IMG/VR virus record: IMGVR_UViG_3300036791_001578
Location: 3,069 to 67,068 of that record
Length of the DNA stretch: 64,000 nucleotides
Strand: one strand, 5' to 3'
DNA from: a virus
Below the pieces are notes generated by a model. It ran no database searches and was not told the origin of the DNA. It worked only from the letters and a program-made list of their open reading frames with translations. Positions 27,913-61,722 of this stretch are shown in pieces (the stretch's first letter is position 1; the number at the start of each line of letters is the position of its first letter). The position numbers and the translations under genes are program-made.

Positions 27913-27933
27913 AGACTAGCCCTCGCTAAAATC

Positions 27934-28140
27934 TTAGTGTTGCCAACCTCCTGCAAAGACCAATGTGGGTAAGCCTGGAGCGCAGCCTGGAGGCACCGCG
28001 GTCGGGCCATCTTCCGGCGCCGGATAACCGCCCTGACCCAACGTTACGCTGGGCGGGTATTTAGGATTCCAAGGACACATGATGCCAGCAACCTCTGTTC
28101 CGGTTGTGGCCAAGGGTTGGGGAGATGTACCGCTGCTCAT
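27934..28140 (-). CDS. small Pro/Gly-rich protein
   Basis: 68 aa ORF between the HNH and fibre genes. Confidence 0.5.
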   Translation of the reverse strand: MSSGTSPQPLATTGTEVAGIMCPWNPKYPPSVTLGQGGYPAPEDGPTAVPPGCAPGLPTLVFAGGWQH

Positions 28141-32630: not shown

Positions 32631-32670
32631 AGAAGCCAAGATAAAGTTCGCTCAAGCCAGGGAGTCAAGC

Positions 32671-48480: not shown

Positions 48481-48487
48481 AAAAAGC

Positions 48488-48519
48488 GGGCGTCCTCGAG
48501 GACACACTCGAGGACGCCC
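48488..48519 (-). terminator. perfect 13-bp hairpin
   Basis: gggcgtcctcgag-gacaca-ctcgaggacgccc; an A7 run on its left gives a U-tract on the minus strand. Confidence 0.65.
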
Positions 48520-48545
48520 AAACACAGATCACACAAAGAACATTT

Positions 48546-49245: not shown

Positions 49246-49587
49246 ATGACAACTACACCTCGAATACTCCAGCTGCTGAAAGACCTCCAGACTAATCCTA
49301 GCAAGTTGAGCCAGGACGATATCAAGGAGCTGGTAAACTACTCCTGTCAGAACCTGATCTCTGGCGACAACGCTGGCCTCTTGGCCGACCCTGTTCTGCG
49401 CCAGCAAGTCAAGGATTATCTAGCGCTCCAGGGTGCCGGCACGTTTCAGGAGCAAGTTAAGGTTGGCACCCGAAATATGAGCGTTGCTCTAGTCGGATTG
49501 GTCGTCGGTGGCGTGCCGATTCTAATTGGCTTTGCCATCTTCTGCTGGCTGCTTTCCGGTGGTCTGTCCCGCATGCTCGGCCATTAG
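49246..49587 (+). CDS. membrane protein
   Basis: 113 aa with a long C-terminal hydrophobic segment. Confidence 0.6.
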   Translation: MTTTPRILQLLKDLQTNPSKLSQDDIKELVNYSCQNLISGDNAGLLADPVLRQQVKDYLALQGAGTFQEQVKVGTRNMSVALVGLVVGGVPILIGFAIFCWLLSGGLSRMLGH

Positions 49588-52085
49588 GCTACTTTCATGT
49601 AGGGATCTGGGTGATCTTGCCAGTAGAACGGATCGCCAACGTCTAAATTGTCGACGTCGTCCTGATTGTGTAAATGCGGGACGTCCATTCCTCCTACGCT
49701 GACTACGCCTTTAGGAGGCTCCTTCGCAGATATTTTCTGAGATGGCTCTTTGCCGGTCGCGAATTCCTCTTCGCTCGCTGATGGGGCACCGGTTACTTGG
49801 CCGGCAGGCACGGCGGTTTTGGCCATTTCTTTAGCCGCTAATTCAGTGGCTAACTGTTCTGGACTAGTTCCCTGGCCAGCGGCTTTTTTCGGTGGCCCGA
49901 TAGGACTAAGGAATTCCTTCTTTAGGTCAATCGGTGCATTCCAATCAACGATCTGTCTATGTTCAGGTTCCGGTTCGTACTGGCCGGTGCGGAATTGCCA
50001 TTGGTCCGAGCTCGGAGCGCCGGTTGTTTGACCGGTTGGCGATTCTGCCGGCGTTTGGATCGGAGCGCTCGGCAACGGTGAGGGTTTGGCCGCGGTGCTT
50101 GCCGCTGGGGAGGCTATTACGGGAGGACGCGGTTGGAGCGCCTCAACGTTTGGATAAGCTCCTGCGGCTGCGCCGGCCACCGGCATTGCTCGTCGCACGG
50201 TAGGCTGAAGCATTTGCGAAGTAGGATGATACTGGCCAGTTGCGAATTGTTCTTCGCTTGAGGTCGGCAGACCGCTTGTCTGGCCAGGGCTCGCGACAGG
50301 AACACCCGCTTTGGCTAAAGCATTGGCCTTTTTAGCCATGTCCAGGGCAGTGTCAGGCTCGGCACCTTTGTCTCCTTGATTTGTCGGCGTTACCGCTGGC
50401 TTGGCCCCAGGCTTTTGCGCTACCTCGGGCTTAGCGGCTGGCTTCTCTCCCGGTATATCAGGCTCCCCCGCGCCGGCAACAGATTGCCAGATGCCCTTGA
50501 CGGCATTCCAGAACATCCCAAAACCTTGCTGTTCGGGATCTTCCTCTTTTGTCGGTGTCGCTGACTTTTGTCCATCGGTCGCAGGCTTTTGTCCGTCAGT
50601 TCCTGTTTTGGTGCCATCCGTCCCACCCGTCCCACCGACCACGGGAGCGACTTTTACGGGAACTCCATCTCGGCCCGCCGCCTTTTGATCCGCGCCCTCT
50701 TCGCCAGGTTCGGGGATTGGGTTTGATTTTTCTCTTATGTCATCGTTAGGACCTACGCCATCATCGGCCAAGTCGTTGGTAGCAACCTTGTAATAGCGCC
50801 GGTAGCTGTCGTCCATGTTTGGCGCTCCCGAAGGCTTGGCCAAATCGATGACATTCATGCGCAGAGTATTATCGACCTGATGCTTTGCCAGCGTCGTCTG
50901 ATACTTCAACGAGTCGGAATCGAAATCGCCTTTAACCATTTCTTTCGCAGAATCCAAGACGTTATTGACCAAAGGGCCTAATAGCGCACCATAGACGCCT
51001 CCTTTTAGATTTATAAGGCTACTCAGGATACCGTTAACATTTGTTGCAACTCCTCCGGCTTGGCCTGCTGGCGCTTGGTCAGAAAGACGCCCAATGTCCA
51101 CATTAGCCTTCTTCAATTGCATCAAATCAGTTTGCAGGTTGAGGAAAGCCTTTCTGGCATCGCTATCTGGGCCAGACATGTTCGCCCAATGACTAAAGGC
51201 TGTCTCCGTATCCAGATTGTTAATAGCCTGCGAAAATTTATTAAGACCTCCCCTGCCTCCGGCTCGCACGTATTGCCTTTCAACGTCTCTGAGTAATTCT
51301 TGAACGTTCCCTGCACCGTTTATGCTCGCCTTTTGGTAGGTATCAAGATCTTTACCTCCAGCTCGCTTTGCGATTTTCAGCATCTGAGTTAATTGACCAG
51401 CATTTGCGGTCGAAACGTCGACCGGTTTGCCTCCAAGCGTCCAATCCTTCCCAGTTAGAGGATTTTCAGGATGGTTGTCTGCGAGCCATTTTCTTTTGTT
51501 AGTAATCGTATCTGCGTAATCATCACCACCAAGATTTACTGGTGCAGATTCTGTTCCATCAGGATTGCGAAAAATGAGTCTCGAATTCGGAGCACTCCTA
51601 TCAATTCGCACGTATTGAGGCGTGCCTTGTATGTTGCGTAGTTCCCACTTTTGCGGGACGCCGGAAGGATTGTTCAGATAGTCAACTCGAATGAGTTTGC
51701 CAGCCATATCGCTCATTCGCTGCTTATTTTGACCATTAATAAAGTCGATGGATTTTTGATCATCCTCCGGCAGCATTTTGCCAATTGGCCGATACCCTTT
51801 TTTTTGGGCGTTGCCATTGAGGGTGAGATCAACGTCGCTATCTGGGTTGTTGACCGAATTTGCATTGTTAACTGGAGCGTTTTGAACTGGCACACGGCCT
51901 CCCGCGTTAGCATTGTTAGATGGAGTAGGGTTCGGCGCAGGATTTCCAGAAACGCCGTTAGGGAATCGCTGCTTGAAAATTCGCGTAACCTGAGGGTCGT
52001 CCATGTAAATGCCTTTGGTCCCTTTTGCTTCGAGCTCATGGAGGATTTGCGCTCGTTGCTGGACCTCGGCATCGCTCATTGCCAT
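49584..52085 (-). CDS. putative internal virion (ejection) protein
   Basis: 833 aa, low-complexity; position in the post-tail operon; three GQxxGxP..FxTG repeats. Confidence 0.6.
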   Translation of the reverse strand: MAMSDAEVQQRAQILHELEAKGTKGIYMDDPQVTRIFKQRFPNGVSGNPAPNPTPSNNANAGGRVPVQNAPVNNANSVNNPDSDVDLTLNGNAQKKGYRPIGKMLPEDDQKSIDFINGQNKQRMSDMAGKLIRVDYLNNPSGVPQKWELRNIQGTPQYVRIDRSAPNSRLIFRNPDGTESAPVNLGGDDYADTITNKRKWLADNHPENPLTGKDWTLGGKPVDVSTANAGQLTQMLKIAKRAGGKDLDTYQKASINGAGNVQELLRDVERQYVRAGGRGGLNKFSQAINNLDTETAFSHWANMSGPDSDARKAFLNLQTDLMQLKKANVDIGRLSDQAPAGQAGGVATNVNGILSSLINLKGGVYGALLGPLVNNVLDSAKEMVKGDFDSDSLKYQTTLAKHQVDNTLRMNVIDLAKPSGAPNMDDSYRRYYKVATNDLADDGVGPNDDIREKSNPIPEPGEEGADQKAAGRDGVPVKVAPVVGGTGGTDGTKTGTDGQKPATDGQKSATPTKEEDPEQQGFGMFWNAVKGIWQSVAGAGEPDIPGEKPAAKPEVAQKPGAKPAVTPTNQGDKGAEPDTALDMAKKANALAKAGVPVASPGQTSGLPTSSEEQFATGQYHPTSQMLQPTVRRAMPVAGAAAGAYPNVEALQPRPPVIASPAASTAAKPSPLPSAPIQTPAESPTGQTTGAPSSDQWQFRTGQYEPEPEHRQIVDWNAPIDLKKEFLSPIGPPKKAAGQGTSPEQLATELAAKEMAKTAVPAGQVTGAPSASEEEFATGKEPSQKISAKEPPKGVVSVGGMDVPHLHNQDDVDNLDVGDPFYWQDHPDPYMKVA

Positions 52086-52089
52086 AACG

Positions 52090-52878
52090 TTAACCTAACG
52101 CAGTGTCGTTGATCGGAGCTGGCGGATACTGGGCGTAGTTCTGTCCTGACACATCGCTGTTATATGTAGGATTTGCGAATACCGCTGGGCGCACATCGAC
52201 CACATTCTGATCATTCGCTCCACCAGTGTAAGATGTCTCTTTTTGAATGGCTTTGTCGATGTCGCTGTCATTATCGCCGCCATCGCCTCCCTTGTTTTGT
52301 CCCCCATCCTTACCTCCGCTGGTTTTAGCCGGAGCAGGAGCCGGTGCCGCTTGCTTTGCCTTAAGGTTCGCCTCGTACTCCTCCCTGGTCATGTAGGTAT
52401 TACTGGCCCCTGGGACATTGAAGGATTTCGCACCGTACATATTTACGGGGACCGAAGGATTATAATAGCCGCCAGTGCCCTGGCCTCCGTACTGCATCCC
52501 ACTTGGGACGGTTAGGTTTCGCAGTAATTGGTTCTGATAGGCCGTGTTTTCTGCTGGACTCAAAGGAACCCATTGGCCATTAACCTCTTTGCCGTACTGC
52601 GTAGACATGATCTGCTTCTGCTGATTCAGCATTCCCTTTGCTTGGCCCTTGAAATACTCTGCGTAGGTTTTTTGCAGGGCATTTTCAGCTCCTTCGCGTG
52701 GCATCTTTGCCAGCAATTCGCCGACCTCGGCACCTTTTTTGAATCGCTCGGTCATGTCGACGAGCTGTTGATTGGCAACGTAATCGCCCGGTGTTGGGGT
52801 TCCCGCGACGATTCCTGGCTGGAACAGGCTCGGGACTGCAAATCTAGCGGGGGGCGCTGGAAGTGGGGCTTGTGGCAA
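52090..52878 (-). CDS. putative internal virion protein
   Basis: 262 aa Gln/Gly/Ala-rich, same operon. Confidence 0.55.
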   Translation of the reverse strand: MPQAPLPAPPARFAVPSLFQPGIVAGTPTPGDYVANQQLVDMTERFKKGAEVGELLAKMPREGAENALQKTYAEYFKGQAKGMLNQQKQIMSTQYGKEVNGQWVPLSPAENTAYQNQLLRNLTVPSGMQYGGQGTGGYYNPSVPVNMYGAKSFNVPGASNTYMTREEYEANLKAKQAAPAPAPAKTSGGKDGGQNKGGDGGDNDSDIDKAIQKETSYTGGANDQNVVDVRPAVFANPTYNSDVSGQNYAQYPPAPINDTALG

Positions 52879-52931: not shown

Positions 52932-53729
52932 TTAGTAGCTCACTCTCGTGTTAGGGCTAAGATTTGGCGGCGTAAAAAACGCTGGTTTAGGTAGCGGCAG
53001 ATTGGGTGCCGTGTAGCTAGCTTTCTCTGAGGAGATGTTCTTACCAATGTTCTGCAACCCAGAGCCGATCGCGCCAATAGCCGAGCTGCCCATCTCGCCA
53101 CCACTCATACCTCCGCCTCCAAAAGAAGTGTTTGCAGCGTTGGAAGCGTCGATCCCCGAGGAGTCAGTTGCTACACCTCCGGTAGTCTGAGGCGCTTGCG
53201 GAGTAGCAGGAGTTGGAGGGCCAACTTGAGTACTCTGGTCAAGGAGGGGAACGTTGAGGGGGGCTGTTGTTGGTTGTTGGGACTGGCCTGCACCGCCGCC
53301 AAAAAAGTTGCGTATCCAATCGAGGAAACCTCCGCTGCTCGAACCATCGGCGCTGTCATTATTGGCTGGCTGGCCGACCTCTGGATTCCGGTTCATCGGC
53401 GTAGGACTCTGCCGAACCGCCTCTCGTTCTATGTGACCAGGGAAATGCCTGTTGAGATGACTCAAGTAGAGGCTGCGCAAAGCTTCGTTGTTTGGCTGCC
53501 CATCACTTGCCAGCGCCTGATGATAGAGCCGGTGGGCTTCATCATAAGGATCCAGGGCTTGCGCGGCGGGCGCAGCGGCGGGCGCAGCCGGTTGAGCGAT
53601 AGGAGCAACGGGTTGTTGCAGTGCTGGTGGCACCTGGGCTTGTGCTACGGGCGCAGCAACCGGGCGACCGTACATTTGCTGATAGCCACGGTTAAATTGA
53701 TCAATCGAATTATTCAGGAAGTTTGGCAT
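52932..53729 (-). CDS. putative internal virion protein
   Basis: 265 aa Pro/Gln/Gly-rich with GGFLDWIRNFFGG and SSAIGAIGSGL; start overlaps the tfuA 3' end. Confidence 0.6.
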   Translation of the reverse strand: MPNFLNNSIDQFNRGYQQMYGRPVAAPVAQAQVPPALQQPVAPIAQPAAPAAAPAAQALDPYDEAHRLYHQALASDGQPNNEALRSLYLSHLNRHFPGHIEREAVRQSPTPMNRNPEVGQPANNDSADGSSSGGFLDWIRNFFGGGAGQSQQPTTAPLNVPLLDQSTQVGPPTPATPQAPQTTGGVATDSSGIDASNAANTSFGGGGMSGGEMGSSAIGAIGSGLQNIGKNISSEKASYTAPNLPLPKPAFFTPPNLSPNTRVSY

Positions 53730-55041
53730 CGCCTAAACGGTCCCGTGCCAAGGCGACCATCAGCTCTCGGACGGTCCCAAATCCCATCTCGCGCACATAA
53801 TCCTCTAAAGACAGGGAGATCGTCAAGCCTGCCCTCTGGGCGTGGCGGGCCAGGAGGTTAGCAATGTCGACTTGGCCACCAAAAGTTAGTGCCTCTTCTC
53901 CGCCTTTTTTAGCGACTTGGGCCTCGTGACGGCCTGCGGCATTAGTCCAGTAAACGTACTGGCCCGAGAGTTTGAGGTAATCGAGCAAGCGCTGCGTCCG
54001 GCGCCGCGGCCCGCTTCGGACCATCAGGGCTCGGCGCAGTTTTCGTAAACGCACCTCTTCGCTTAAGATCCGTACTAGCTCTTTCCCGTTGAGATGATGT
54101 TCGCGCATCCAACGGTCGTGCTCTTCGAGCGAGCGCAGATTGCGGCGGATGTTCGAGCGCTGCCATTCCTGATTGATTTCGTCATTGGTCACCGGGATCC
54201 GGTAGATATCGGCGAGCAAAAGCGCCAGGGTCCGGTTATCGGCGTCCTCGGTGTGCTGTTCGTACTCTTGGTCGTGCAAGGTAATGAACGCATCCAGATC
54301 TTGGAGCTTGATGTGTTGCTGGCCTACCCAGATCGCTCGGTCGCGCTCAAACTGTGCGCTAAATAACCAAGAGAGCGCCTCCTCGGTCGGTTTAATCGCA
54401 TTGTCGGCCTGCTTCAACTCGCGGAAGGTGCAGAGCAATTCCAGAGCATCGATTGCCTTCTGATTATGGCCTCTCAAGATCTCCAAAAGGATTGGGTACT
54501 CGGCGAGCATTCGCTCGGTCCGTTCAGTCCAATGAATACTGCTGGCAAGGGCGAAGATTTCTTCAGCCTCTTCCTGCTCGAGTACTTCCGTCTCGAGGGC
54601 CTTCATGAGTGCTCCGCGCACGTTGACCAACGGGATCGTAGTAGCAACGAGTGACCCGTCTCGGGCGTGAGCGTAAGTTGAGGCGACTTCGCTCTCCTCA
54701 GTGATAACGCCTTCGTTATACCAATGGAAAATTCGACCAGCTCCGATCATTCCAAAGGGCGACAAGTCCGCGGCTCTCAGAGCCCCCATCGAAGCGGCTC
54801 CGTAGATGCCTTTGACTCCCGGCACTTGCAACGCCCACACGATTTCCTTGTGCCAGACCGAAAGGGCTTGATGAAAACAACCTGTTATGAGTAGAACGTG
54901 ACTGGGCTCAAAATGCATCAGATCACTGATGAAATCGCCCTGGCTTACTGGGGGCTGGATGATAGCGGCAGGGATCCGTTCGCGAATACTGTCGTGATCT
55001 AATTCAGGCCCCGTATAGACCAGCACTCTCTCCTCATCCAT
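53710..55041 (-). CDS. tfuA: TfuA protein with long C-terminal helical extension
   Basis: VYTGP, PPVSQGD, GCFHQALSVWHKEI, GAASMGALRAADL..FGMIGAG.IF, EESEVA, PLVNVR and NQKAIDA. Confidence 0.95.
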   Translation of the reverse strand: MDEERVLVYTGPELDHDSIRERIPAAIIQPPVSQGDFISDLMHFEPSHVLLITGCFHQALSVWHKEIVWALQVPGVKGIYGAASMGALRAADLSPFGMIGAGRIFHWYNEGVITEESEVASTYAHARDGSLVATTIPLVNVRGALMKALETEVLEQEEAEEIFALASSIHWTERTERMLAEYPILLEILRGHNQKAIDALELLCTFRELKQADNAIKPTEEALSWLFSAQFERDRAIWVGQQHIKLQDLDAFITLHDQEYEQHTEDADNRTLALLLADIYRIPVTNDEINQEWQRSNIRRNLRSLEEHDRWMREHHLNGKELVRILSEEVRLRKLRRALMVRSGPRRRTQRLLDYLKLSGQYVYWTNAAGRHEAQVAKKGGEEALTFGGQVDIANLLARHAQRAGLTISLSLEDYVREMGFGTVRELMVALARDRLGDAKLPE

Positions 55042-55165
55042 ATGAGATCAAAAATTATTGAAGCTTTGCCACCGTGGTTACGAGTGCTTTGGAAGGTTGA
55101 AGTAGATTTCGTAAATGGAAAGCGAATAATAGTGCAAAGAAAAGAGCATCACCGCCTGCCGGAAA

Positions 55166-56419
55166 TTAGGATGGCTCGGTTTTTTGGATCTCTCGGGCTA
55201 GCGCCGCGGGCGCTCGGCCATTTGTCTTCCATTGTTCGCACCACGCTCCTTCAAGCTGCGGAGCCACTGCTTTGACGACGATCAACCTCTGATCTCCGAA
55301 ATCTTCTCGCGCCAGCTGCGCGTAGTAAAGCCGGTCTATGCCCTCGGCGCTTAGCCGACCGAGAAGAAATGACAGCTCTTGTTTAATCGAATCAAATCTG
55401 AACTCTGGATACTGGGCCGCGAATTCATTCCACGTTGGTTTAACCGCTGGCAGCATTTCTAGTTGCCCGATGAGCTGCTCGGAGCTGTGACGTTTCATCA
55501 AAATGAAATCACGCCGGTAGAGATCATCGCGAGCGCCGGAGATGTAACAGAGCCGACTCTGGATCGCCTCGAGTAAAGCCCGCTGAGCTGCAACCCTGAG
55601 ACTTTGGCTGCAACCGTAGCCGCCGAAGAGTCCGACGCCGTCCCGGCCAAATAGGGCACAAGCCATTACCGGAATGCCAAGCTCTTGAGTGCAATCGTAA
55701 AGAAAGGGATAGAGTCCTGCTCTACGCATTAGGGCCACACTCCATTCCAGTTCCGCCGGCAGGCCAACTAGCGGAACCTTGATTGGCGGGATCCCGATCG
55801 ATTCGCGAATGAACTGGTTGCAGGTCCACCCGTCGCGCTCGACCAACTCATAGAGCGCCTGCAAGACCGCGTCCTCTACATCGATCCCGCTCGCCAGGCC
55901 GTTGCTGGTTTGCTGAACGTCCAGAAACTGCTGCAACACCCGGTCTTTTAGCCAGACCATGTGCGAGGGCATCCAGACAAGCTTGCCGCTTCCTAAATGG
56001 TGGACGACTTCCCAGGCTACCGGCGTGTTTTCGTCCAGTATGTTGTCCCTGGCCAACGGATAGTCTTGCAGCGGCAGCACTTCCGCCGCTGTGTCCTTTT
56101 GTATATCGACATAACTGCAAAGCTTGTAGGCGCTGGTTGGATTCTCCGCAGCCCAGAATTCGATCGCTTCGACAATCGATCCCACGCAGCTCAAGACCGT
56201 GTCAGGATTCTTCCCGGCAGTGACCGATATGGTCGTAGCCAGTGGCCGGTAACAGACCCAGATCGGAACGCCGATGATGTCGAGCCCATCGATCTGGCGA
56301 TAAGAACTGATCCCGTACCGGAGCAGACTCGAGTAGGGCAGGCGATAGACAGTCTGGGCTAGGTCGGCGCGGGCATTGGCCCTAGCGTCGTTACCGAGAT
56401 AGGCTAGGCAAGGCTGCAT
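55166..56419 (-). CDS. ycaO: YcaO-family ATP-dependent enzyme, TfuA-associated type
   Basis: GLDIIGVP, AGK..SIVEAIE, TSNGLASG..ALYELVERD, GYGC..RALLEAIQSR..ISGARDD and VVKAVAPQLE; ATG 56419 preferred over TTG 56431. Confidence 0.95.
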   Translation of the reverse strand: MQPCLAYLGNDARANARADLAQTVYRLPYSSLLRYGISSYRQIDGLDIIGVPIWVCYRPLATTISVTAGKNPDTVLSCVGSIVEAIEFWAAENPTSAYKLCSYVDIQKDTAAEVLPLQDYPLARDNILDENTPVAWEVVHHLGSGKLVWMPSHMVWLKDRVLQQFLDVQQTSNGLASGIDVEDAVLQALYELVERDGWTCNQFIRESIGIPPIKVPLVGLPAELEWSVALMRRAGLYPFLYDCTQELGIPVMACALFGRDGVGLFGGYGCSQSLRVAAQRALLEAIQSRLCYISGARDDLYRRDFILMKRHSSEQLIGQLEMLPAVKPTWNEFAAQYPEFRFDSIKQELSFLLGRLSAEGIDRLYYAQLAREDFGDQRLIVVKAVAPQLEGAWCEQWKTNGRAPAALAREIQKTEPS

Positions 56420-57260
56420 AGGGCAAGCCAAAGGTCACAAATTCCATGGCTAGACGGACTGGCGCTTTCGCCCAAGAATGCCGCTCAAGCCATTCGGCCA
56501 TCTTTGGCCCATGCTGCACGTACAATGACCGTAAAGGCTTCGGGGCACGGCTAAGCATAAAGTATCGGAAGCGCTTCCACCGTGGGTGGTAGCGCCCATA
56601 GGCGGCGCGGGCCAGCCAGCAGAACGCGACTACGGCTAACGCACTGACTGCGGTGCCGGCTGCGCCGACTGCACTGCCCGTCGATGCGTTGGCGGCATTT
56701 GCGCTAGCCACTGACTGTTGAGCAGCCATGTTCGCGGCAAACTGACTTTCCTGAACTTTGTAGGCGTAGTCCGTTTGGTTCCAATTATTTTGGCCAGCGA
56801 TGTTGCCAAGTGCGATTTGGGAAGCGTCGGCACCGGAAAGTCCGAAGCTGCGCGGCTGGAAAGTCTGATTGGCGGTTTGGAACTGGTTCATCAGCTGTTG
56901 CTGATAGTTCATCTGGTTCACGCCCAAGTTTCTGGCGATGTTCGCTATCCCTGGCGTGCCAGTGCCCAAGCTCCAGCCGCCGGTCGCACCTAGCGCTCCG
57001 GTCAGTCCGCTGCGAGCCCACAGATTCTGGAATTGCGGCGTGATGTTGCCGGTCTCCTGATTCTGAAGGTTGTTTAGAAACGTCTGCTGAGTATTCCAGA
57101 GCTGCGGATAACGCTGCCGAAAATCCGCGTCGGAGAGCCCATATGCCGTCTGATCCATTCCGACGGCTTGCTGTTCAATCGCGGTCGGATTGGCAGCGAT
57201 AAAGGGCGGCATCGAGCCTGGCAGAGTCGGTTTTGGAAAACTGGGCGCGGTACTGGGCAT
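56391..57260 (-). CDS. putative pilot/ejection protein with C-terminal Cys-initiated domain
   Basis: Gln/Asn-rich body, Ala/Gly-rich hydrophobic stretch, then CWLARAAYG..W..FR..AP..LY..HG. Confidence 0.65.
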   Translation of the reverse strand: MPSTAPSFPKPTLPGSMPPFIAANPTAIEQQAVGMDQTAYGLSDADFRQRYPQLWNTQQTFLNNLQNQETGNITPQFQNLWARSGLTGALGATGGWSLGTGTPGIANIARNLGVNQMNYQQQLMNQFQTANQTFQPRSFGLSGADASQIALGNIAGQNNWNQTDYAYKVQESQFAANMAAQQSVASANAANASTGSAVGAAGTAVSALAVVAFCWLARAAYGRYHPRWKRFRYFMLSRAPKPLRSLYVQHGPKMAEWLERHSWAKAPVRLAMEFVTFGLPYAALPSLSR

Positions 57261-57646
57261 TAGTCTACCTCGAAGGGTTTAAGCGGTAGATCACTGAGGC
57301 CCAGCTTAGCGAGAAGCTCTGGGTTCGCCAACACACTTTTATCGTCGATTAGCCAGAGCGGATTTCCGAAAACACGTTTGCTTGTCGCGATCACAACCTT
57401 GGCCACTTCGTAAAATTCTCGTGGGCTCAGCGCATCTGGCGAAACCGTTGGCCGAATCACGACCTGGGGTTGTGCGTAATAGTAAGCAATAGGCCGCTCA
57501 TCTACTAAAACGACAAAAATTGGAAAAACCGGCACCACCTCGACCTTCGATTCCTTGGCCAACTCATCGAGGCCCCACATGAAAATGCCCTCTTCATTGT
57601 CGATGCGGATCTGGGAGATCTTTTGGCGAGGAGTAAAGGTTCTCAC
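57260..57646 (-). CDS. degenerate GNAT-fold-like protein
   Basis: GTG 57646 overlaps the upstream TGA; FVVLVDERPIAY..LLAKLG pattern; position matches acetyltransferase-like genes of podoviruses. Confidence 0.4.
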   Translation of the reverse strand: MRTFTPRQKISQIRIDNEEGIFMWGLDELAKESKVEVVPVFPIFVVLVDERPIAYYYAQPQVVIRPTVSPDALSPREFYEVAKVVIATSKRVFGNPLWLIDDKSVLANPELLAKLGLSDLPLKPFEVD

Positions 57647-58467
57647 TGATATTTGATCATATGGTTGATGCAGGCAAAGGGCGGCATGATTGGAAATTGC
57701 TGTTGGGCACTTCCCAGTGCCTTGCCGGTCATATCCGTAACCCCCCAAGAAAAGGTCGAGGTAAAGTTTGGCGTGCCGGGCGCTTGAAGGTTGGGAATCG
57801 GATTACCCGGCAGATTGGGCGGCAGTGCGTTAGCCACTTTAAATGGAGAGGTGCGTAGCGTTATTTTCATCCAGTCGAAGTGTGAACAGGTAACGTCAGT
57901 GGCAAGCAAGTCGCCCGACAATTGGCTGCCGCCTCTTGAGCCTACTCCGCTAGTGGGCGGAGTAATCGGGTTCCCGCTCTCGTCGGTAATATCCAAGGGC
58001 ACTCTGCTTTGAGGAACCCAGCCAGCCGCGTTCATATAGATTTTCGCTCCCGGCGGCAAATTGAAGGTGCTGGCTCCGTCCCCAGCGCCCCAGGTTTCCC
58101 CGACCGCTTGGAACAGCCGGCGATAGGTCGAACGCGAAATCTCAGAGCCATCACAGGTGATCCACCCTTGCGGCTGGTAACCCTGGCTACCGGCAATCAT
58201 GGCAATGGTGCCAATCGGGCAACCTTGCTCTCCCGGCTGATACTGAGAACTGCCAGGATCAAAAAACCACCACTGGTTAGTGGCATAGTCGAACCAAGGC
58301 CCAATGTCATGCGTCGGCATCGCTCCCCCGCTTCGCCCAATGAGCACGCTCGGATCCAACTCGCCAGAGAGTGATTCTCCGAACAAATTGATAAAACCCG
58401 GCACCTTACCGTTCCAACCCAGCGGAGCTGCGGCCATCGTTAAGTTGATCAGGATGGGCACTGACAT
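57643..58467 (-). CDS. tail-collar domain protein 3
   Basis: PIGTI..GWITCDGSEISRSTY..LF..VG.TWGAGDG.STFNLP; C-terminal MPPF..NHMIK. Confidence 0.85.
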   Translation of the reverse strand: MSVPILINLTMAAAPLGWNGKVPGFINLFGESLSGELDPSVLIGRSGGAMPTHDIGPWFDYATNQWWFFDPGSSQYQPGEQGCPIGTIAMIAGSQGYQPQGWITCDGSEISRSTYRRLFQAVGETWGAGDGASTFNLPPGAKIYMNAAGWVPQSRVPLDITDESGNPITPPTSGVGSRGGSQLSGDLLATDVTCSHFDWMKITLRTSPFKVANALPPNLPGNPIPNLQAPGTPNFTSTFSWGVTDMTGKALGSAQQQFPIMPPFACINHMIKYQ

Positions 58468-58473
58468 AGGTTC

Positions 58474-59220
58474 TTAGAGGTATTTGATGATAAAGTTACA
58501 GCCAACGTAGGGCGGCATCACCGAAACCGGTTGTTGGTTAGTTCCAACTAGCACTCCGTTGTTATCGATTACCGGGTAATCATAGGCCGCACCTAGAACA
58601 CCAGAGAGCGTGTCCGGCACATTGGTGCCATCATCGATAATTGCGGGATTCAAGAAAGGCACTTGAATGTTCAAGGGCGGCAGTGCGCTTGCCGGAATAA
58701 CTACCTGTTGTGCCCCGCCGGTGCCTCCCGCCGGAACATCTGGGTTTCCATTAAATGAAACCCCAGGCTCAAGGAAGAAGCCCTGCGCGTTCATGAAGAA
58801 GACGCCACTGGGAGGTAGGCGGAAAGTGTTGTTTCCTCCGACTCCCCAAGTGGTGCCGATGGCGTTAAAAAGCCGAGGATAGGTGGCAATATTGAGTGGT
58901 CTGCCGTCACAAAGCAGCCAACGAGCTGGCACCATATCGTTTCCGGCTTGTCCCCAGATGGCAACGGTGCCAATGGGGCAACCTCCTTCAGAAGGTTGGT
59001 AGCCATATCCCGGCACCCAGACCCACCATTCATCCCCGTTTAACCAGGGGCCGACATTGGACGAGGGCGCAGGGCCTCCGACCTGACCGGTAATGAAACT
59101 GACATCGATTGAGCCGCTCAAGCATTCGCTTACCAACGTGGCAATATCGAGAACTGATTCACCCTGCCAACCGATCGGCGGAGGAGAGGCCTCAATTAAA
59201 ACTGGAACTGGAACAGCCAT
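58474..59220 (-). CDS. tail-collar domain protein 2
   Basis: PIGTV..WLLCDG..TYPRLFNAIGTTWG..TFRLP; MPPYV..NFIIK. Confidence 0.85.
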   Translation of the reverse strand: MAVPVPVLIEASPPPIGWQGESVLDIATLVSECLSGSIDVSFITGQVGGPAPSSNVGPWLNGDEWWVWVPGYGYQPSEGGCPIGTVAIWGQAGNDMVPARWLLCDGRPLNIATYPRLFNAIGTTWGVGGNNTFRLPPSGVFFMNAQGFFLEPGVSFNGNPDVPAGGTGGAQQVVIPASALPPLNIQVPFLNPAIIDDGTNVPDTLSGVLGAAYDYPVIDNNGVLVGTNQQPVSVMPPYVGCNFIIKYL

Positions 59221-59997
59221 CTAGCCTGCTTTAATGATGTAGTTGACCGCAACGAAGGGAGGAGTAATCGAGAATTGCGTCTGGGTTAAGGTATTAAGTT
59301 GGGTCCCTTGGGCATCGCATAAGATAAAGTCCCAACCCTCAACGTTTGGCTGATTAGCCGGGTATAAAAAAGCCAGCGTGTACACTCCTCCTTGGGTTTT
59401 TTTGGCGGCCATTACATAGGGCACCGGCACTTTCATCGGCGGCATGTTAGCCGCAACTAACAGCGCAGCTAATTGGTTACCGCCCTGGCCATTAACAAAG
59501 TAACCACGTCCATTGCCGCTGGCATCGATGGGGACGCTCGCTACAGGCCTAAAGCCCTTTTGGTTCAGATAAAACAGACCCCCAGGAGGAAGGTTAAAGG
59601 TCGTAACGCCGTCGCCCCCGCCCCAAGTGTCGCCAATCACCTGATGGAGCTGATTATACTGAGTACGTAAAACCTCGCTTCCGTCACACAACAGCCAATT
59701 GGGAGGAACACCAGGCGAGCCCCACATCATGACCATGCCGATGGGCACCCCTTCTATGCCGCGTTGGTATTTGCCTAAACTCGGCTCCCAGAACCACCAT
59801 TGGGCTCCATTAGCCCATGGCCCAATGTTTGTGGTCGGTGCCGAGCCTCCTAACTGGCCGAAAATAATATTCGGAGGATTGATGAAAGTCGTGCCCAGCG
59901 AATCGGCCACCCGGTTCATGAGTTCTTGCACGCTCTCCGGTATGTCCTCCATCGGCGGAGTCTTCACATAAAAATCGACTGGGAGGGGCGCAGACAT
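59221..59997 (-). CDS. tail-collar domain protein 1
   Basis: PIGMV..WLLCDGSEV.R..Y..L..VIG.TWGGGDG.TTFNLP; PPFVAVNYIIK. Confidence 0.85.
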   Translation of the reverse strand: MSAPLPVDFYVKTPPMEDIPESVQELMNRVADSLGTTFINPPNIIFGQLGGSAPTTNIGPWANGAQWWFWEPSLGKYQRGIEGVPIGMVMMWGSPGVPPNWLLCDGSEVLRTQYNQLHQVIGDTWGGGDGVTTFNLPPGGLFYLNQKGFRPVASVPIDASGNGRGYFVNGQGGNQLAALLVAANMPPMKVPVPYVMAAKKTQGGVYTLAFLYPANQPNVEGWDFILCDAQGTQLNTLTQTQFSITPPFVAVNYIIKAG

Positions 59998-59998
59998 G

Positions 59999-61441
59999 CT
60001 AGCTTCGATTCCAACTCATGCGGAAGGTCAGTTGCAGACTCGATCCAGCAAGGAGCGCATGCGGCTGGTCCCAGCAGTAAGTGATTATCTGGTTGGTTCT
60101 ATCGGGATTGCCGTAGCCAAATGAATTGACGTTTTGCTGGCTATTGCCGATCACGATGTCGGCAGTCTGATCGAGGTAATAATCGCCAAGCTCATAGAGC
60201 GGGGCCGGTGCCACGACTGCGACATCCACTGTCGAGGGATCCAGCAAGGTTGGCGAACCGTTCGAACCCATAAGGGCGGGTCCAAGGCTGGAGCACCAAA
60301 TTCGTCCAGCGATTGAAGGTTCGCCCAGGCCGAGGAAGGTATCATCGGTCGGCGTCGGCGCGGCGCTCTGACCGAATTGATTGACCAGATAGATCCCGAG
60401 GTTCCCGCGGAAGAATACTCCACTCAGCGGGATAGTCACTGAACCGCCGGTCGGGCTGGCCGTGCTCGCCCAAGCCACTCCCAGACTCATAACCGTAGTG
60501 ATACCGTGGGTCGGATCGGTTATCGTAACCGCGTCCAATATCTGCCAAGTGCCATTATAGGCGGCGTAGCTCGAACCGCTTAAGATCAAGTCTTCGCCGA
60601 TAATTACCGGGACATTGCCGGTGACATTTACAGCCAAATGATTGGGCTGGGTAGCGCTCGCTGCGTATTGCCAAATCGAAAATACAATGGGGAGATTAGT
60701 GATGCCGATCGTCGCCGACGTGTTGCCGGGAACGAAGATGCCGGGACCGGAGCCAAAGTCGAAATTAATGATCAGCTGATAGGTGACCTGCAAGGCTTGA
60801 CCAGAAGGGATTTCGGACTCCGGGCCTAAGAGGCTAACCGGCTGAGCCAACAGAATCCGGCTGAACAAATTGGGGCCGGCGACGGTTTGGTCCGAGAGAC
60901 CGATTTCGGTATACGTGATTGCGGCCACTTCCGGCGTAAAAAGAAAAGTGCGTTGCAGGGTTATGGCGGCAGGCTCAACGTCTGAAAAATTGGCACCGGG
61001 AACTTGACTGCAATTCACGGTGCGCTTCATCTCGTTACCCAAGGTGGCTTGGTTGGTGTACTGGACGGTGAAGGCTGTAGCGGTAGTAATAGTTCCGCTT
61101 GTGAATAAGGTAACGTGTTGAGGGTCGATGTAAGCTGTGATCTTGAAACGCTGGCCAGTCGAAAAGACCACACTTGCATCGAGATCAGCATTGCTAAATG
61201 CCGCAGCCGCAGCGCTTAACGCCGTACCGGCTACCGTTGCCGTAGTGTTCGGGTTACGGTTGGTGACTTGCGTGCCGGTGCCACAACAACAAGCTGCGAA
61301 TAACTGGTTGTAGAGGACGCTAGCTACCTTATCGAGGCCCTGGTCAAGGATGAGGTTGTCTTGCCAGGGATAGCTCCTCACTAGCTCGCCATCCGGCCCA
61401 AGCACCGCTATTTTGACTCTTCCTTTTAGGCTCTGGTGCAT
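59999..61441 (-). CDS. virion tail structural protein
   Basis: NLILDQGLD..GTG..LGNE..TEIGL..LFSRI..LQVTYQL; Thr-rich beta composition. Confidence 0.65.
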   Translation of the reverse strand: MHQSLKGRVKIAVLGPDGELVRSYPWQDNLILDQGLDKVASVLYNQLFAACCCGTGTQVTNRNPNTTATVAGTALSAAAAAFSNADLDASVVFSTGQRFKITAYIDPQHVTLFTSGTITTATAFTVQYTNQATLGNEMKRTVNCSQVPGANFSDVEPAAITLQRTFLFTPEVAAITYTEIGLSDQTVAGPNLFSRILLAQPVSLLGPESEIPSGQALQVTYQLIINFDFGSGPGIFVPGNTSATIGITNLPIVFSIWQYAASATQPNHLAVNVTGNVPVIIGEDLILSGSSYAAYNGTWQILDAVTITDPTHGITTVMSLGVAWASTASPTGGSVTIPLSGVFFRGNLGIYLVNQFGQSAAPTPTDDTFLGLGEPSIAGRIWCSSLGPALMGSNGSPTLLDPSTVDVAVVAPAPLYELGDYYLDQTADIVIGNSQQNVNSFGYGNPDRTNQIITYCWDQPHALLAGSSLQLTFRMSWNRS

Positions 61442-61443
61442 AC

Positions 61444-61722
61444 TTAAGGTGGCGGCGCAATGTAACCGCCTAGGTGCAAGAACATGCCAGTACCTAGTGA
61501 ATCGCTAGCACTGGTTGAGACCGTTTGGGCGTAATAGGCACCGACTTGCAAGAAAACTCCCGTGCCCATCGATTCAGTTAAAAGCGCCTGATTGGCATCG
61601 CCAGGATTAGGTGTGGGAACAATCGGCTTCGGCGGCGGATAAATTCCGAAGCTCGTGTAGCTCGAGTCCGGCGTGCGCGGCGTGAAGACTTTCTGAAATG
61701 GCTGAAAGATGCGCGTCTTCAT
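61444..61722 (-). CDS. small structural-operon protein
   Basis: ATG 61722 overlaps the upstream TGA; internal repeat ESMGTGVFLQVGAY/DSLGTGMFLHLGGY. Confidence 0.6.
   Translation of the reverse strand: MKTRIFQPFQKVFTPRTPDSSYTSFGIYPPPKPIVPTPNPGDANQALLTESMGTGVFLQVGAYYAQTVSTSASDSLGTGMFLHLGGYIAPPP

What the first reader, a model, noticed from the sequence alone, without database searches (positions are those of the whole stretch)
53710..56419. Phage-encoded YcaO-TfuA thioamidation pair embedded in the ejection-protein operon
Seen: a full-length YcaO with intact ATP/Mg-binding motifs (SIVEAIE, SNGLASG..ELVERD, EAIQSR..SGARDD) followed by a TfuA with its full motif set. The ycaO start overlaps the upstream gene by 29 nt, and the tfuA end overlaps the downstream gene by 20 nt. 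No RiPP transporter, tailoring enzymes, ThiS/ThiF or typical leader peptide were recognised in the window. Established: YcaO-TfuA pairs install backbone thioamides (thioglycine of methyl-coenzyme M reductase; thioviridamide-class peptides), with TfuA mobilising sulfur from thiocarboxylated ThiS. Inference: the phage co-expresses the pair with late genes to thioamidate its own virion or ejected proteins, perhaps for protease resistance, stability or defence evasion, using host sulfur carriers. A host protein target is an alternative. I know of no described phage example; novelty needs a literature check.
Basis: partly seen in the sequence, partly recalled or inferred. Interest (0 to 1): 0.95.

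Follow-up and report, generated by a model that had tools for sequence, protein, structure and literature searches.

The report
Phage-encoded YcaO-TfuA thioamidation gene pair
An uncultured soil phage and all its readable relatives carry, inside their tail and virion gene operon, an intact pair of enzymes that in cells swap a backbone oxygen for sulfur in proteins or peptides, and the likeliest target is an alanine-rich stretch of the phage protein encoded just upstream, which would be the first such modification known in a virus.

Summary
Window 55166-56431(-) is a full YcaO (Pfam 1.1e-47) and 53710-55041(-) a 443-aa TfuA (3.5e-34; fold Z 24.9 to archaeal TfuA).

The window lies in a 67-kb IMG/VR virus record. 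In all 20 related viral loci whose DNA continues past ycaO, a long tfuA follows directly. No relative lacks the pair. dN/dS is 0.055-0.11, and phage TfuA forms one clade.

The pair belongs to a widespread bacterial "YcaO + long TfuA" type. Its extra C-terminal half looks like a SurA/trigger-factor chaperone domain, though all scores are sub-threshold. In bacteria this type sits beside Nif11-leader precursors with Ala/Thr/Val-rich cores.

The phage gene always coupled upstream (56391-57260) carries a matching Ala/Gly-rich segment, so it is the best substrate candidate. This is inferred, not shown.

"Ejection-protein operon" is plausible, but profile comparisons with P22 gp7 and gp10 gave no support.

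Eight literature searches found no paper on a phage YcaO-TfuA. This scan had already noted the same system on other DNA: 22 notes in at least 16 other genomes.

Verdict: a real, conserved, probably functional system, a new variant of a known kind. Interest 0.8.

The parts
55166..56431 (-). ycaO, 421 aa from TTG 56431 (417 aa from ATG 56419). ATP-dependent backbone amide activating enzyme.
   Evidence: PF02624 E 1.1e-47, full length. The clade profile's best solved relative is the thioamide-forming MJ1094 (6PE3/6PEU), E 2.7e-39, against 1e-16 to 1e-18 for azoline-forming MusD, LynD and TruD. 44 invariant columns in 31 sequences. dN/dS 0.055-0.080 in relatives.
54511..55041 (-). tfuA N-terminal half (residues 1-177): the canonical TfuA domain.
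   Evidence: PF07812 E 3.5e-34. AlphaFold model of pLDDT 84.6. VIA Z 24.9, rmsd 2.2, 199 residues aligned to M. acetivorans TfuA 6XP8. Foldseek E 4.3e-11.
53713..54510 (-). tfuA C-terminal half (residues 178-443): a helical domain shared with bacterial 'long TfuA'. Probably a SurA/trigger-factor-like peptide-holding module.
   Evidence: Conserved across 16 phage and 18 bacterial sequences. Model pLDDT 90.2. 8 of the top 11 VIA rows are SurA, PrsA, SurA-like or trigger factor, Z 4.0-6.5. Foldseek's top rows are YacD, SurA and Cj1289, prob 0.84-0.95 but E above 0.1. Pfam SurA_N_3 hits 8 of 34 members, best E 2.7e-4; the window's own copy has no hit. All of this is sub-threshold.
55042..55165 (-). 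124-nt spacer between ycaO and tfuA.
   Evidence: Read. Not conserved: the two genes overlap in most relatives. L002 holds an unrelated 101-aa ORF at this position. No precursor peptide is encoded here.
56391..57260 (-). Upstream 289-aa Q/N/G/A-rich protein, overlapping ycaO by 29 nt. Best candidate substrate.
   Evidence: An orthologue lies directly upstream of ycaO in every locus read, 22 distinct orthologues in all. No Pfam or PHROG family. dN/dS 0.093-0.127.
56622..56735 (-). Ala/Gly/Ser/Thr/Val-rich segment (residues about 176-213) of the upstream protein. Proposed thioamidation site or sites.
   Evidence: The best small-residue 20-mer (19 of 20) is residues 193-212, ending just before Cys214. 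The richest 20-mer sits at this place in 18 of 22 orthologues. Such a window occurs in 18 of 22 orthologues against 9 of 223 other gene-like ORFs. Its composition matches the cores of bacterial Nif11 precursors next to YcaO + long TfuA.
56394..56621 (-). 76-aa Cys-initiated basic/aromatic C-terminal domain of the upstream protein. An independent, widespread module distantly like CFI-box-CTERM.
   Evidence: NF041770 E 2.1e-5, 24.2 bits, below the cut-off of 40. 1442 cluster representatives at E<=1e-3, always C-terminal. Absent from three phage lineages that keep the pair.
52932..53729 (-). Downstream 265-aa A/P/G-rich protein, overlapping the tfuA end by 20 nt.
   Evidence: ORF. No family. Homologue found in L006 only. 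Alternative substrate.
52090..52878 (-). 262-aa A/G/P/Q-rich protein.
49584..52085 (-). 833-aa low-complexity protein, the last large gene of the operon.
   Evidence: Counterparts of 617-908 aa in relatives.
48487..48520 (-). Terminator-like hairpin (14-bp stem, 10 GC pairs, T run) closing the operon.
57260..57748 (-). Conserved 162-aa (or shorter) protein between the tail collar genes and the candidate substrate.
   Evidence: Orthologues in 18 of the 21 loci (none detected in L019 or L022) and in L106, L107 and L119. No family.
57643..61441 (-). Three tandem tail-collar-domain genes and a tail fibre gene, upstream in the same operon.
   Evidence: PF07484 E 1e-15 and 2e-15. PHROG tail and tail fibre families.
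61719..63599 (-). Conserved 626-aa virion-module protein, used as the clade marker.
   Evidence: 34-88% identical in 27 viral loci. No Pfam family in 17 of 17 members. Weak atlas lead to PF11134 Phage_stabilise, 17% of one cluster.

Best explanation
The phage encodes a working two-enzyme backbone-thioamidation system, transcribed with its late tail and virion genes.

Proposed mechanism. YcaO uses ATP to activate a peptide-bond oxygen. TfuA releases sulfide from a host thiocarboxylated ThiS-like carrier, because the phage has none of its own. The oxygen is then replaced by sulfur.

Type of system. The pair belongs to the bacterial 'YcaO + long TfuA' type. The extra C-terminal half of its TfuA is probably a SurA/trigger-factor-like module that holds an unfolded, hydrophobic substrate segment.

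Most likely substrate. It is the Ala/Gly/Ser/Thr/Val-rich stretch of about 25-40 residues near the C-terminus of the 289-aa virion-module protein. That protein is encoded immediately upstream and is translationally coupled to ycaO. One or several thioamides would be installed there, as happens iteratively on Ala-rich cores of thioamitides.

Shown here: enzyme identities, intact catalytic motifs, conservation, purifying selection, operon context, kinship to the bacterial type, and the compositional match of the neighbouring segment.

Inferred: the chemistry in this phage, the sulfur source, the substrate, and any benefit such as protease resistance or altered membrane or channel behaviour of a virion or ejected protein.
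For: 1. Identity. Pfam YcaO 1.1e-47 and TfuA 3.5e-34. The TfuA fold has Z 24.9 to 6XP8. The YcaO clade profile is closest to the thioamide-forming MJ1094 at 2.7e-39, against at best 2.7e-18 for cyclodehydratases.

2. Conservation.
- 21 viral loci were found with the YcaO profile.
- Long tfuA follows ycaO in 18 of 21. The other three end at the contig edge.
- The same holds in L109 and L119 among seven further contigs found with the 626-aa marker. The other five end before that position.
- No locus lacks the pair.
- Gene order holds down to 29-38% YcaO identity.

3. Selection. dN/dS is 0.055-0.080 for YcaO and 0.078-0.112 for TfuA. This is as low as, or lower than, the flanking structural genes at 0.079-0.127.

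4. Single lineage. 18 phage TfuA form one clade (SH-aLRT 95; 0 of 500 shuffles as low). For YcaO, the tree with all 19 phage rows held together is 46 lnL units better than the free quick tree, p-AU 0.90.

5. Bacterial type. Of 599 matched stretches in genome contigs, 591 encode TfuA relatives. Of the 80 best loci, 68 match the phage TfuA to residue 420 or beyond, and 74 have ycaO directly upstream.

6. Substrate logic.
- Next to the bacterial pairs lie Nif11-leader ORFs. PF07862 is above cut-off in 6 of 10 tested.
- Of 40 such ORFs of 180 aa or fewer, 23 (in 17 loci) end in small-residue/Ala tails. Among control ORFs the figure is 47 of 3628.
- Azospirillum has Nif11-like leaders fused to about 350 aa of Ala-rich repeats.
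- The phage upstream protein has such a segment in 18 of 22 orthologues, against 9 of 223 other ORFs.
- The segment persists while its flanks vary. In three lineages the protein ends at it.

7. Literature (passages read).
- TsaH/TsaI (YcaO/TfuA) iteratively thioamidate an Ala/Val/Ile-rich core, and thioamides protect against proteolysis (PMC8153245).
- TfuA with thiocarboxylated ThiS delivers sulfide. Only MCR and uL16 are characterised thioamidated proteins (PMC13063428).
Against: - No experiment or proteomic datum bears on this phage.
- The substrate link rests on adjacency and composition. The upstream protein is low-complexity throughout.
- Four close relatives (L002, L003, L006, L107) miss my 17-of-20 criterion.
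- The segment's hydropathy (KD19 1.1-1.96) is compatible with a plain membrane anchor.
- P22 gp7, from a phage without YcaO-TfuA, also ends in a Gly/Ala-rich hydrophobic tail. Such tails therefore exist without thioamidation.
- The phage protein has no Nif11 leader (0 of 22), so recognition would have to differ from the bacterial clusters.
- The products of those bacterial clusters are themselves uncharacterised.
- Both enzymes score below the NCBIfam equivalog cut-offs: 119 against 365, and 134 against 235.
- The SurA-like reading of the TfuA C-domain rests only on sub-threshold scores, and the window's own copy gave no SurA hit.
- In the free quick tree the L022 YcaO sat apart from the other phage rows.
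Confidence: 0.55

Rival explanations
1. The pair is functional, but its target is another phage protein of the operon. Candidates are the A/G/P/Q-rich proteins encoded downstream (52932-53729, 52090-52878, 49584-52085) or a tail protein. On this reading the Ala-rich segment upstream is only a membrane anchor.
For: - tfuA overlaps the downstream gene by 20 nt.
- All relatives have 2-3 large low-complexity proteins after tfuA.
- A few other ORFs, including tail fibre genes and the L006 downstream protein, also contain small-residue windows (9 of 223).
- Hydropathy of the upstream segment fits a membrane helix in about half of the orthologues.
- P22 gp7 has a similar tail without any YcaO.
Against: - None of the downstream proteins ends in, or conserves, an Ala-rich tail.
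- Their sequence similarity across the clade is too low for BLAST, with hits only in L002 and L006.
- The upstream position is where the bacterial clusters keep their precursors.
Confidence: 0.15
2. The pair modifies a host protein during infection as a take-over or anti-defence function, in the way that E. coli YcaO modifies ribosomal protein uL16.
For: - YcaO enzymes can recognise folded proteins (uL16 and MCR; PMC13063428 passages).
- No leader peptide is recognisable in the phage.
- The host is unknown, so host targets cannot be excluded.
Against: - The genes sit in the late structural operon, not among early genes.
- uL16-type YcaOs lack TfuA, according to that paper.
- E. coli YcaO is the most distant solved relative at 3e-8.
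- The nearest bacterial relatives are precursor-linked clusters.
Confidence: 0.12
3. The Ala-rich end of the upstream protein is released as a small modified peptide, a phage-borne RiPP-like membrane-active or signalling product, rather than acting as part of a virion protein.
For: - The bacterial relatives are RiPP-like, with Nif11 leaders, GG motifs and short cores.
- Three phage lineages end the protein exactly at the Ala-rich tail.
- The following Cys-initiated domain is a detachable, widespread module.
Against: - No peptidase, transporter or GG cleavage site was recognised next to the phage segment.
- The N-terminal 170-450 residues are conserved and under purifying selection. That suits a functional protein better than a leader.
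Confidence: 0.1
4. YcaO performs another YcaO reaction here, either azoline formation at the invariant Cys214 or amidine formation, or the pair is a recently captured passenger without function.
For: - YcaO chemistry is diverse: MusD, LynD and TruD are detectable relatives.
- An invariant Cys directly follows the segment wherever the C-domain is present (19 of 19).
Against: - TfuA partners are tied to thioamidation (PMC8153245 and PMC13063428 passages).
- The closest solved YcaO is a thioamide former.
- Three lineages lack the Cys and still keep the pair.
- Strong purifying selection and deep, clade-wide retention exclude a passenger.
Confidence: 0.05

Closest known systems
Bacterial YcaO + long (about 430-470 aa) TfuA clusters with Nif11-type precursors. 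They are uncharacterised. Nif11-like precursors in TfuA clusters are mentioned in PMC8120280 (passages read).
   Same: - Same two-gene order, with ycaO directly before tfuA.
- Same full-length TfuA architecture, including the C-terminal helical domain (matches to residues 5-437 at 26-34% identity).
- An Ala/Thr/Val/Gly/Ser-rich putative substrate segment is encoded just upstream.
   Different: - The phage has no Nif11 leader and no GG site (0 of 22).
- The candidate substrate segment is part of a 210-576 aa virion-module protein.
- The context is a phage structural operon.
- The phage enzymes form their own clade.
Archaeal YcaO-TfuA that forms thioglycine in methyl-coenzyme M reductase McrA (TIGR03266 / NF033432; structures MJ1094 6PE3/6PEU and TfuA 6XP8).
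   Same: - Best solved relatives of both proteins.
- Best NCBIfam models for both.
- The substrate is a protein rather than a small peptide.
   Different: - Scores are far below the equivalog cut-offs: 119.4 against 365, and 134.4 against 235.2.
- Archaeal TfuA is about 217 aa and lacks the C-terminal domain.
- There is no MCR in a phage.
Thioamitide (thioviridamide / thiostreptamide) TsaH/TsaI YcaO-TfuA.
   Same: YcaO plus TfuA act iteratively on an Ala/Val/Ile-rich stretch, and thioamides protect against proteolysis (PMC8153245 passages).
   Different: - The phage operon has no HopA1-like, phosphotransferase or other tailoring genes and no leader.
- The cellular relatives listed are at most 32% identical. 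No thioamitide enzyme was compared directly.
E. coli YcaO thioamidating ribosomal protein uL16 (PMC13063428).
   Same: Backbone thioamidation of a full-size protein by a YcaO.
   Different: - It has no TfuA partner, according to the paper.
- E. coli YcaO is the weakest solved match, 3e-8 over about 120 residues.
P22 gp7 / gp20 / gp16 ejection-protein module.
   Same: - Position after the tail and hub genes.
- gp7 (229 aa) is Q/N-rich and ends in a Gly/Ala-rich hydrophobic tail like the 289-aa protein.
- Weak atlas leads to P22_gp7 (13% of one cluster, score 0.81) and Phage_stabilise (17%).
   Different: - No significant profile similarity: hhalign 3.25%, 1.2% and 0.16%.
- HMMER finds nothing, and Pfam P22_gp7 hits 0 of 22.
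- P22 has no YcaO or TfuA.

Membership tests
YcaO superfamily (PF02624) | Full-length match to the YcaO ATP/Mg-binding domain above the gathering score. | tested here: met
   163.5 bits against 25.7, profile positions 2-325 of 325. Also found by the genome search at 9.4e-50.
YcaO superfamily (PF02624) | Conserved acidic and basic residues of the nucleotide and Mg site. | tested here: met
   E88, E91, E195, E198, R199, D200, E288, Q291, R293, R301, D302 and D303 are invariant in 31 clade sequences. Assigning them to the ATP/Mg site is recalled from the literature and was not mapped on a structure here.
McrA-glycine thioamidation YcaO (TIGR03266 equivalog) | Score above the equivalog cut-off of 365 bits. 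| tested here: not met
   119.4 bits. This is the best model, but the protein is not an equivalog.
TfuA (PF07812) | TfuA domain above the gathering score, and the TfuA fold. | tested here: met
   117.6 bits against 30. Z 24.9, rmsd 2.2, 199 residues aligned to 6XP8.
TfuA-related McrA-glycine thioamidation protein (NF033432 equivalog) | Score above the cut-off of 235.2 bits. | tested here: not met
   134.4 bits.
Thioamide-forming YcaO-TfuA pair | ycaO and tfuA adjacent and co-oriented. | tested here: met
   Window. 20 of 20 viral loci that continue past ycaO.
Thioamide-forming YcaO-TfuA pair | Thioamide actually installed (+15.977 Da). | not testable with these tools
   Needs mass spectrometry.
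Thioamide-forming YcaO-TfuA pair | Thiocarboxylated ThiS-like sulfur carrier available. | tested here: not met
   No PF02597 or PF00899 match in the 67-kb record. The carrier would have to come from the host, which is unknown.
Bacterial YcaO + long TfuA / Nif11-precursor clusters | TfuA with the conserved C-terminal domain of about 260 aa. | tested here: met
   Full-length alignments to 68 of 80 bacterial loci. Joint alignment A4.
Bacterial YcaO + long TfuA / Nif11-precursor clusters | Nif11-type leader with a GG motif on the neighbouring precursor. | tested here: not met
   0 of 22 phage orthologues match Nif11 at E<=1. Of 10 bacterial precursors tested, 6 do.
Bacterial YcaO + long TfuA / Nif11-precursor clusters | Ala/small-residue-rich core encoded directly upstream. 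| tested here: met
   18 of 22 phage orthologues against 9 of 223 other ORFs. 23 of 40 bacterial precursors against 47 of 3628 control ORFs.
SurA / trigger-factor chaperone domain (for the TfuA C-terminal half) | Significant structural or sequence match. | tested here: inconclusive
   VIA Z 4.0-6.5. Foldseek prob 0.84-0.95 but E 0.19-1.4. SurA_N_3 in 8 of 34 members, best E 2.7e-4, none for the window's copy.
P22-type ejection proteins (PF25688 P22_gp7) | Profile similarity of the 289-aa protein to gp7. | tested here: inconclusive
   hhalign 3.25% and 1.2%. Pfam 0 of 22. HMMER none. Only a weak atlas lead and a similar overall architecture.
CFI-box-CTERM (NF041770) for the 76-aa C-domain | Score above the cut-off of 40 bits. 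| tested here: not met
   24.2 bits, E 2.1e-5, model positions 1-67 of 69. 6 of 6 related domains hit, all below the cut-off.

The most novel reading that the evidence does not exclude
A deep clade of soil phages thioamidates the Ala-rich C-terminal segment of its own virion-module, possibly ejected, protein. It would use a YcaO together with a TfuA that carries its own SurA-like substrate-holding domain. This would be the first virus-encoded backbone thioamidation and only the third kind of thioamidated protein known, after MCR and uL16. It would also imply that a RiPP-type modification system has been recruited to build or arm a virus particle.
Probability: 0.4. Interest if true: 0.9.

Novelty: new variant of a known kind. 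Interest (0 to 1): 0.8.

Why it matters
Backbone thioamides are among the rarest protein modifications. A 2026 paper states that MCR and ribosomal protein uL16 are the only characterised protein cases (PMC13063428, passage read).

Finding the dedicated enzyme pair as a conserved, strongly selected core gene set of a phage structural operon has three consequences:
- It extends this chemistry to viruses.
- It names a concrete protein-sized candidate substrate that can be tested by simple co-expression and mass spectrometry.
- It links the phage system to a large, unstudied bacterial family: YcaO + long TfuA with Nif11 or Ala-rich precursors, for which 591 of 599 matched stretches in one scan encoded TfuA relatives. 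The products and the extra TfuA domain of that family are unknown.

It may also show how phages harden or tune proteins that meet host proteases or membranes.

Tried and rejected
**GenBank phages.**
- blastn of 53000-57500 and tblastn of YcaO found no match. The tool warns that the window's own record or very near ones may be left out.
- A single-protein scan of IMG/VR found nothing. Only the profile scan did.

**PHROGs and Pfam on neighbours.** About 30 neighbouring and distant ORFs were tested. Hits were limited to tail collar and fibre families, TerL, RecT, GH46 and DUF6492, plus a few sub-threshold matches. The low-complexity proteins around the pair gave nothing.

**Precursor in the spacer.** The idea that a small precursor lies in the 124-nt ycaO-tfuA spacer is rejected. 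The spacer is not conserved.

**The Cys-initiated C-domain as a YcaO-specific 'follower' recognition element.** Rejected on three grounds:
- It is missing in L003, L109 and L111, with no second copy in the fetched DNA.
- It is a widespread independent module: 1442 representatives, with only 28 of 147 preceded by small-residue runs.
- PHROGs has no family for it, and no paper mentions CFI-box-CTERM.

**Homology of the 289-aa protein to P22 gp7, and of the 626-aa protein to P22 gp10.** Not supported (Pfam).

**Complex prediction** (YcaO + TfuA + residues 82-216 of the upstream protein). No verdict: score 0.00 against a mark of 0.32, and the controls were not run. This counts neither for nor against binding.

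**Sequencing runs.** The look-up of sequencing runs listed one DNA run, which may be the source. No RNA holder was listed. Read laying showed only contigs of that run.

**Other tool results.**
- The search for homologous proteins on TfuA residues 180-443 returned only metagenomic phage-clade proteins, because of word-index limits. The bacterial relatives came from the genome scan.
- Foldseek on the whole TfuA model found nothing for the C-terminal half, so that half was folded alone.
- No tRNA was found in the window.

**Not seen or not done.**
- Supplementary files of PMC8120280, which hold its cluster lists and precursor logos, were not seen. They may already list some of the bacterial clusters used here.
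- The host of the phage was not determined.

Full report
**1. What is there**

All genes around the finding lie on the minus strand.

- ycaO occupies 55166-56431: 421 aa from a TTG, or 417 aa from the ATG at 56419.
- tfuA occupies 53710-55041 (443 aa). A 124-nt spacer separates the two genes.
- Pfam gives YcaO at 1.1e-47 over the whole model. It gives TfuA at 3.5e-34, but only over residues 54-175, so about 260 C-terminal residues stay unassigned.
- The best NCBIfam models are the two McrA-glycine thioamidation families. Both scores are far below the equivalog cut-offs: 119.4 against 365, and 134.4 against 235.2.
- The window is bases 3069-67068 of a 67,068-bp IMG/VR virus record, rated 91% complete by CheckV.
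- The record has a large terminase, tail fibre and tail collar genes, RecT and a GH46-like hydrolase. Most of its proteins match no Pfam or PHROG family. It is therefore a very divergent phage.

**2. The operon**

From about 63.6 kb down to 49.6 kb the minus strand carries these genes in order:

- a conserved 626-aa protein;
- a tail fibre gene;
- three tail-collar genes;
- a 162-aa protein;
- a 289-aa Q/N/G/A-rich protein;
- ycaO and tfuA;
- three A/G/P/Q-rich proteins of 265, 262 and 833 aa.

Several neighbours overlap. The scan found no terminator-like site between 49584 and 57260. A 14-bp GC-rich hairpin with a T run lies at 48520-48487. Co-transcription with late structural genes is thus likely, though not measured.

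**3. Is the pair a stable part of the phage?**

- GenBank phages gave no hit.
- The protein collection held about 47 metagenomic YcaOs of 35-92% identity, several on contigs of 68-78 kb. Identity then drops sharply to cellular YcaOs of 32% or less.
- A profile of 31 of these found 21 IMG/VR loci. Four of them, L015-L018, are near-identical.
- In 18 of the 21, a 430-483 aa TfuA follows ycaO directly. The other three end at the contig edge.
- A scan with the 626-aa marker added seven new contigs. L109 and L119 reach far enough and have the pair. Five end before that position.
- No relative without the pair was seen.
- Gene order (626-aa protein, fibres, 162-aa protein, 289-aa-type protein, ycaO, tfuA) holds down to 29-38% YcaO identity.
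- In four closer relatives, dN/dS is 0.055-0.080 for YcaO and 0.078-0.112 for TfuA. The flanking genes give 0.079-0.127.
- Phage TfuAs form one clade (SH-aLRT 95).
- In the free quick YcaO tree, L022 sat apart among long branches. The tree with all 19 phage rows held together is 46 log-likelihood units better, with p-AU 0.90.

Together this argues for one old acquisition, vertical inheritance and function.

**4. What kind of YcaO-TfuA is it?**

- The YcaO profile is closest to the thioamide-forming MJ1094 at 2.7e-39. Azoline-forming MusD, LynD and TruD (1e-16 to 1e-18) and E. coli YcaO (3e-8) are much further.
- The TfuA N-terminal half superposes on M. acetivorans TfuA with Z 24.9.
- A genome scan with the phage TfuA alignment matched 599 stretches, 591 of them relatives. 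The best 80 loci come from many bacterial phyla.
- Of those 80, 68 match the phage protein to residue 420 or beyond, and 74 have ycaO directly upstream. None holds a homologue of the phage virion genes.
- The 'long TfuA' is therefore a bacterial architecture that the phage shares.
- I folded the C-terminal half alone, with 34 phage and bacterial sequences (pLDDT 90.2). Its best structural neighbours are the chaperone domains of SurA, PrsA, Cj1289/PEB4 and trigger factor. VIA gives Z 4.0-6.5, with 8 of the top 11 rows from these families. Foldseek gives prob 0.84-0.95 at E 0.19-1.4.
- The commonest weak Pfam hit among the 34 is SurA_N_3, in 8 members with best E 2.7e-4. The window's own copy has no such hit.
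- These three lines agree, but each is below its significance mark. I treat 'peptide-holding chaperone-like domain' as a lead.

**5. The likely substrate**

*In the bacterial loci:*

- ORFs just upstream of ycaO carry Nif11-type leaders. PF07862 is above cut-off in 6 of 10 tested.
- These leaders are followed by cores rich in Ala, Thr, Val, Ser and Gly.
- Of 40 such ORFs of 180 aa or fewer, 23 (in 17 loci) end in a small-residue/Ala tail. Among control ORFs the figure is 47 of 3628.
- Azospirillum loci instead have a Nif11-like leader fused to about 350 aa of Ala-rich repeats.
- Nif11-like precursors in TfuA clusters are mentioned in PMC8120280 (passages read). That paper does not use the words phage or virus.

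*In the phages:*

- The gene coupled to ycaO encodes a protein of 210-576 aa with conserved N-terminal and central motifs and variable Q/G repeats.
- It always carries an Ala/Gly/Ser/Thr/Val-rich segment. In the window this is residues about 176-213.
- The richest 20-mer (19 of 20 small residues) ends just before Cys214.
- Such a window is present in 18 of 22 orthologues, against 9 of 223 other gene-like ORFs.
- In 19 orthologues the segment is followed by a 65-90 aa Cys-initiated basic/aromatic domain.
- In three lineages (L003, L109, L111) the protein simply ends at the Ala-rich tail, and the fetched DNA holds no other copy of that domain.

*The Cys-initiated domain:*

- It is an independent, widespread module: 1442 cluster representatives, always C-terminal, in proteins of 84-1030 aa.
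- It is distantly like NCBIfam CFI-box-CTERM (24.2 bits against a cut-off of 40).
- It is therefore not specific to the YcaO system.

*Conclusion.* The only feature shared by the three kinds of neighbour is the Ala-rich small-residue stretch. The three kinds are short Nif11 precursors, long Azospirillum proteins, and the phage protein. That stretch is my candidate site.

Characterised thioamitide enzymes (YcaO TsaH with TfuA TsaI) do act iteratively on an Ala/Val/Ile-rich core, and thioamides there protect against proteolysis (PMC8153245, passages read).

**6. Caveats**

- The link is by adjacency and composition only.
- The segment could be a plain membrane anchor. Its hydropathy is 1.1-1.96.
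- P22 gp7, an ejection protein of a phage without YcaO, also ends in a Gly/Ala-rich hydrophobic tail.
- The phage protein has no Nif11 leader (0 of 22).
- The bacterial products are themselves unknown.
- The phage has no ThiS or ThiF. Sulfur must come from the host, and the host is unknown.

**7. 'Ejection-protein operon'**

Position and composition fit internal or ejected proteins. A protein language-model search gave weak leads to P22_gp7 (13% of one cluster, score 0.81) and Phage_stabilise (17% of one cluster).

Direct tests failed:

- Pfam: 0 of 22 and 0 of 17.
- hhalign against P22 gp7, a gp7 family alignment and gp10: 3.25%, 1.2% and 0.16%.
- HMMER: nothing.

The label is plausible but unproven.

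**8. Novelty**

Eight full-text searches found no paper describing a phage or viral YcaO-TfuA. Search terms included YcaO, TfuA, phage, bacteriophage, viral, phage genome and Nif11.

A 2026 paper states that MCR and uL16 are the only characterised thioamidated proteins. It also states that TfuA with thiocarboxylated ThiS delivers sulfide (PMC13063428, passages read).

This scan had already noted the same system on other DNA: 22 notes in at least 16 genomes. Two first-reader notes on this window cover the candidate substrate and the TfuA extension. I used those as leads and re-derived the evidence here.

**9. Verdict**

The pair is a real, conserved, strongly selected phage system.

- It most likely installs backbone thioamides (about 0.75).
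- It most likely does so on the Ala-rich segment of the upstream virion-module protein (about 0.45-0.5).

It is a new variant of a known kind, and it is directly testable by co-expression and mass spectrometry.

Noticed in passing
window 56394-56621 (-): The 76-aa Cys-initiated, W/R/F/Y-rich C-terminal domain of the upstream protein is a widespread module. It has 1442 cluster representatives at E<=1e-3, always at the C-terminus of proteins of 84-1030 aa, often after Gly/Met/Ala-rich runs. It is distantly like NCBIfam CFI-box-CTERM, below the cut-off. Its function is unknown. The three phage lineages that lack it end their protein at or within a few residues of the junction before the Cys, which hints that the domain may be removable.
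   Followed up: partly
L066:5108-6487 and L073:5267-6565 (Azospirillum loci): Directly upstream of ycaO and long tfuA lie 430-460 aa proteins. Each has a Nif11-like leader followed by about 350 aa of Ala/Gly/Ser/Thr/Phe-rich tandem repeats. They could be protein-sized, multi-core substrates in bacteria.
   Followed up: partly
L028, L038, L039 (ycaO-tfuA-ycaO); L042, L046, L052, L060, L062 (ycaO-ycaO-tfuA): Several bacterial long-TfuA clusters carry two YcaO genes. The phages carry one.
   Followed up: no
L029, L044, L055, L086, L090 (Chlamydiota/Verrucomicrobiota loci): Nif11-like ORFs lie on the opposite strand, in two to three copies, with cores that are not Ala-rich. This may be a different substrate class for the same enzyme type.
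   Followed up: no
L002:11253-11558: A 101-aa Cys-rich ORF is inserted between ycaO and tfuA in one relative only.
   Followed up: no
L129:9369-10058 (phage P22 gene 7): The P22 ejection protein gp7 is Q/N-rich and ends in a Gly/Ala-rich hydrophobic tail. The overall architecture is like the 289-aa protein, although no profile similarity could be shown.
   Followed up: yes
window 57643-59997 (-): Three tandem paralogous tail-collar-domain genes of 274, 248 and 258 aa. Relatives have one to three.
   Followed up: no
window 25048-27912 (-): A 954-aa protein matches 45 PHROG families, most of the 25 listed being tail fibre or tail families, one of them a collagen-like minor tail family. It lies in the window's highest-GC stretch (0.60 at 26001-28000).
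   Followed up: no
window 17455-18138 (-) and 31572-32639 (-): A GH46 (chitosanase-family) hydrolase at 2.6e-15, possibly a lysis enzyme, and a RecT recombinase at 4.9e-14.
   Followed up: no
window 48487-48520 (-): A strong terminator-like hairpin (14-bp stem, 10 GC pairs, T run) marks the end of the long structural operon.
   Followed up: no
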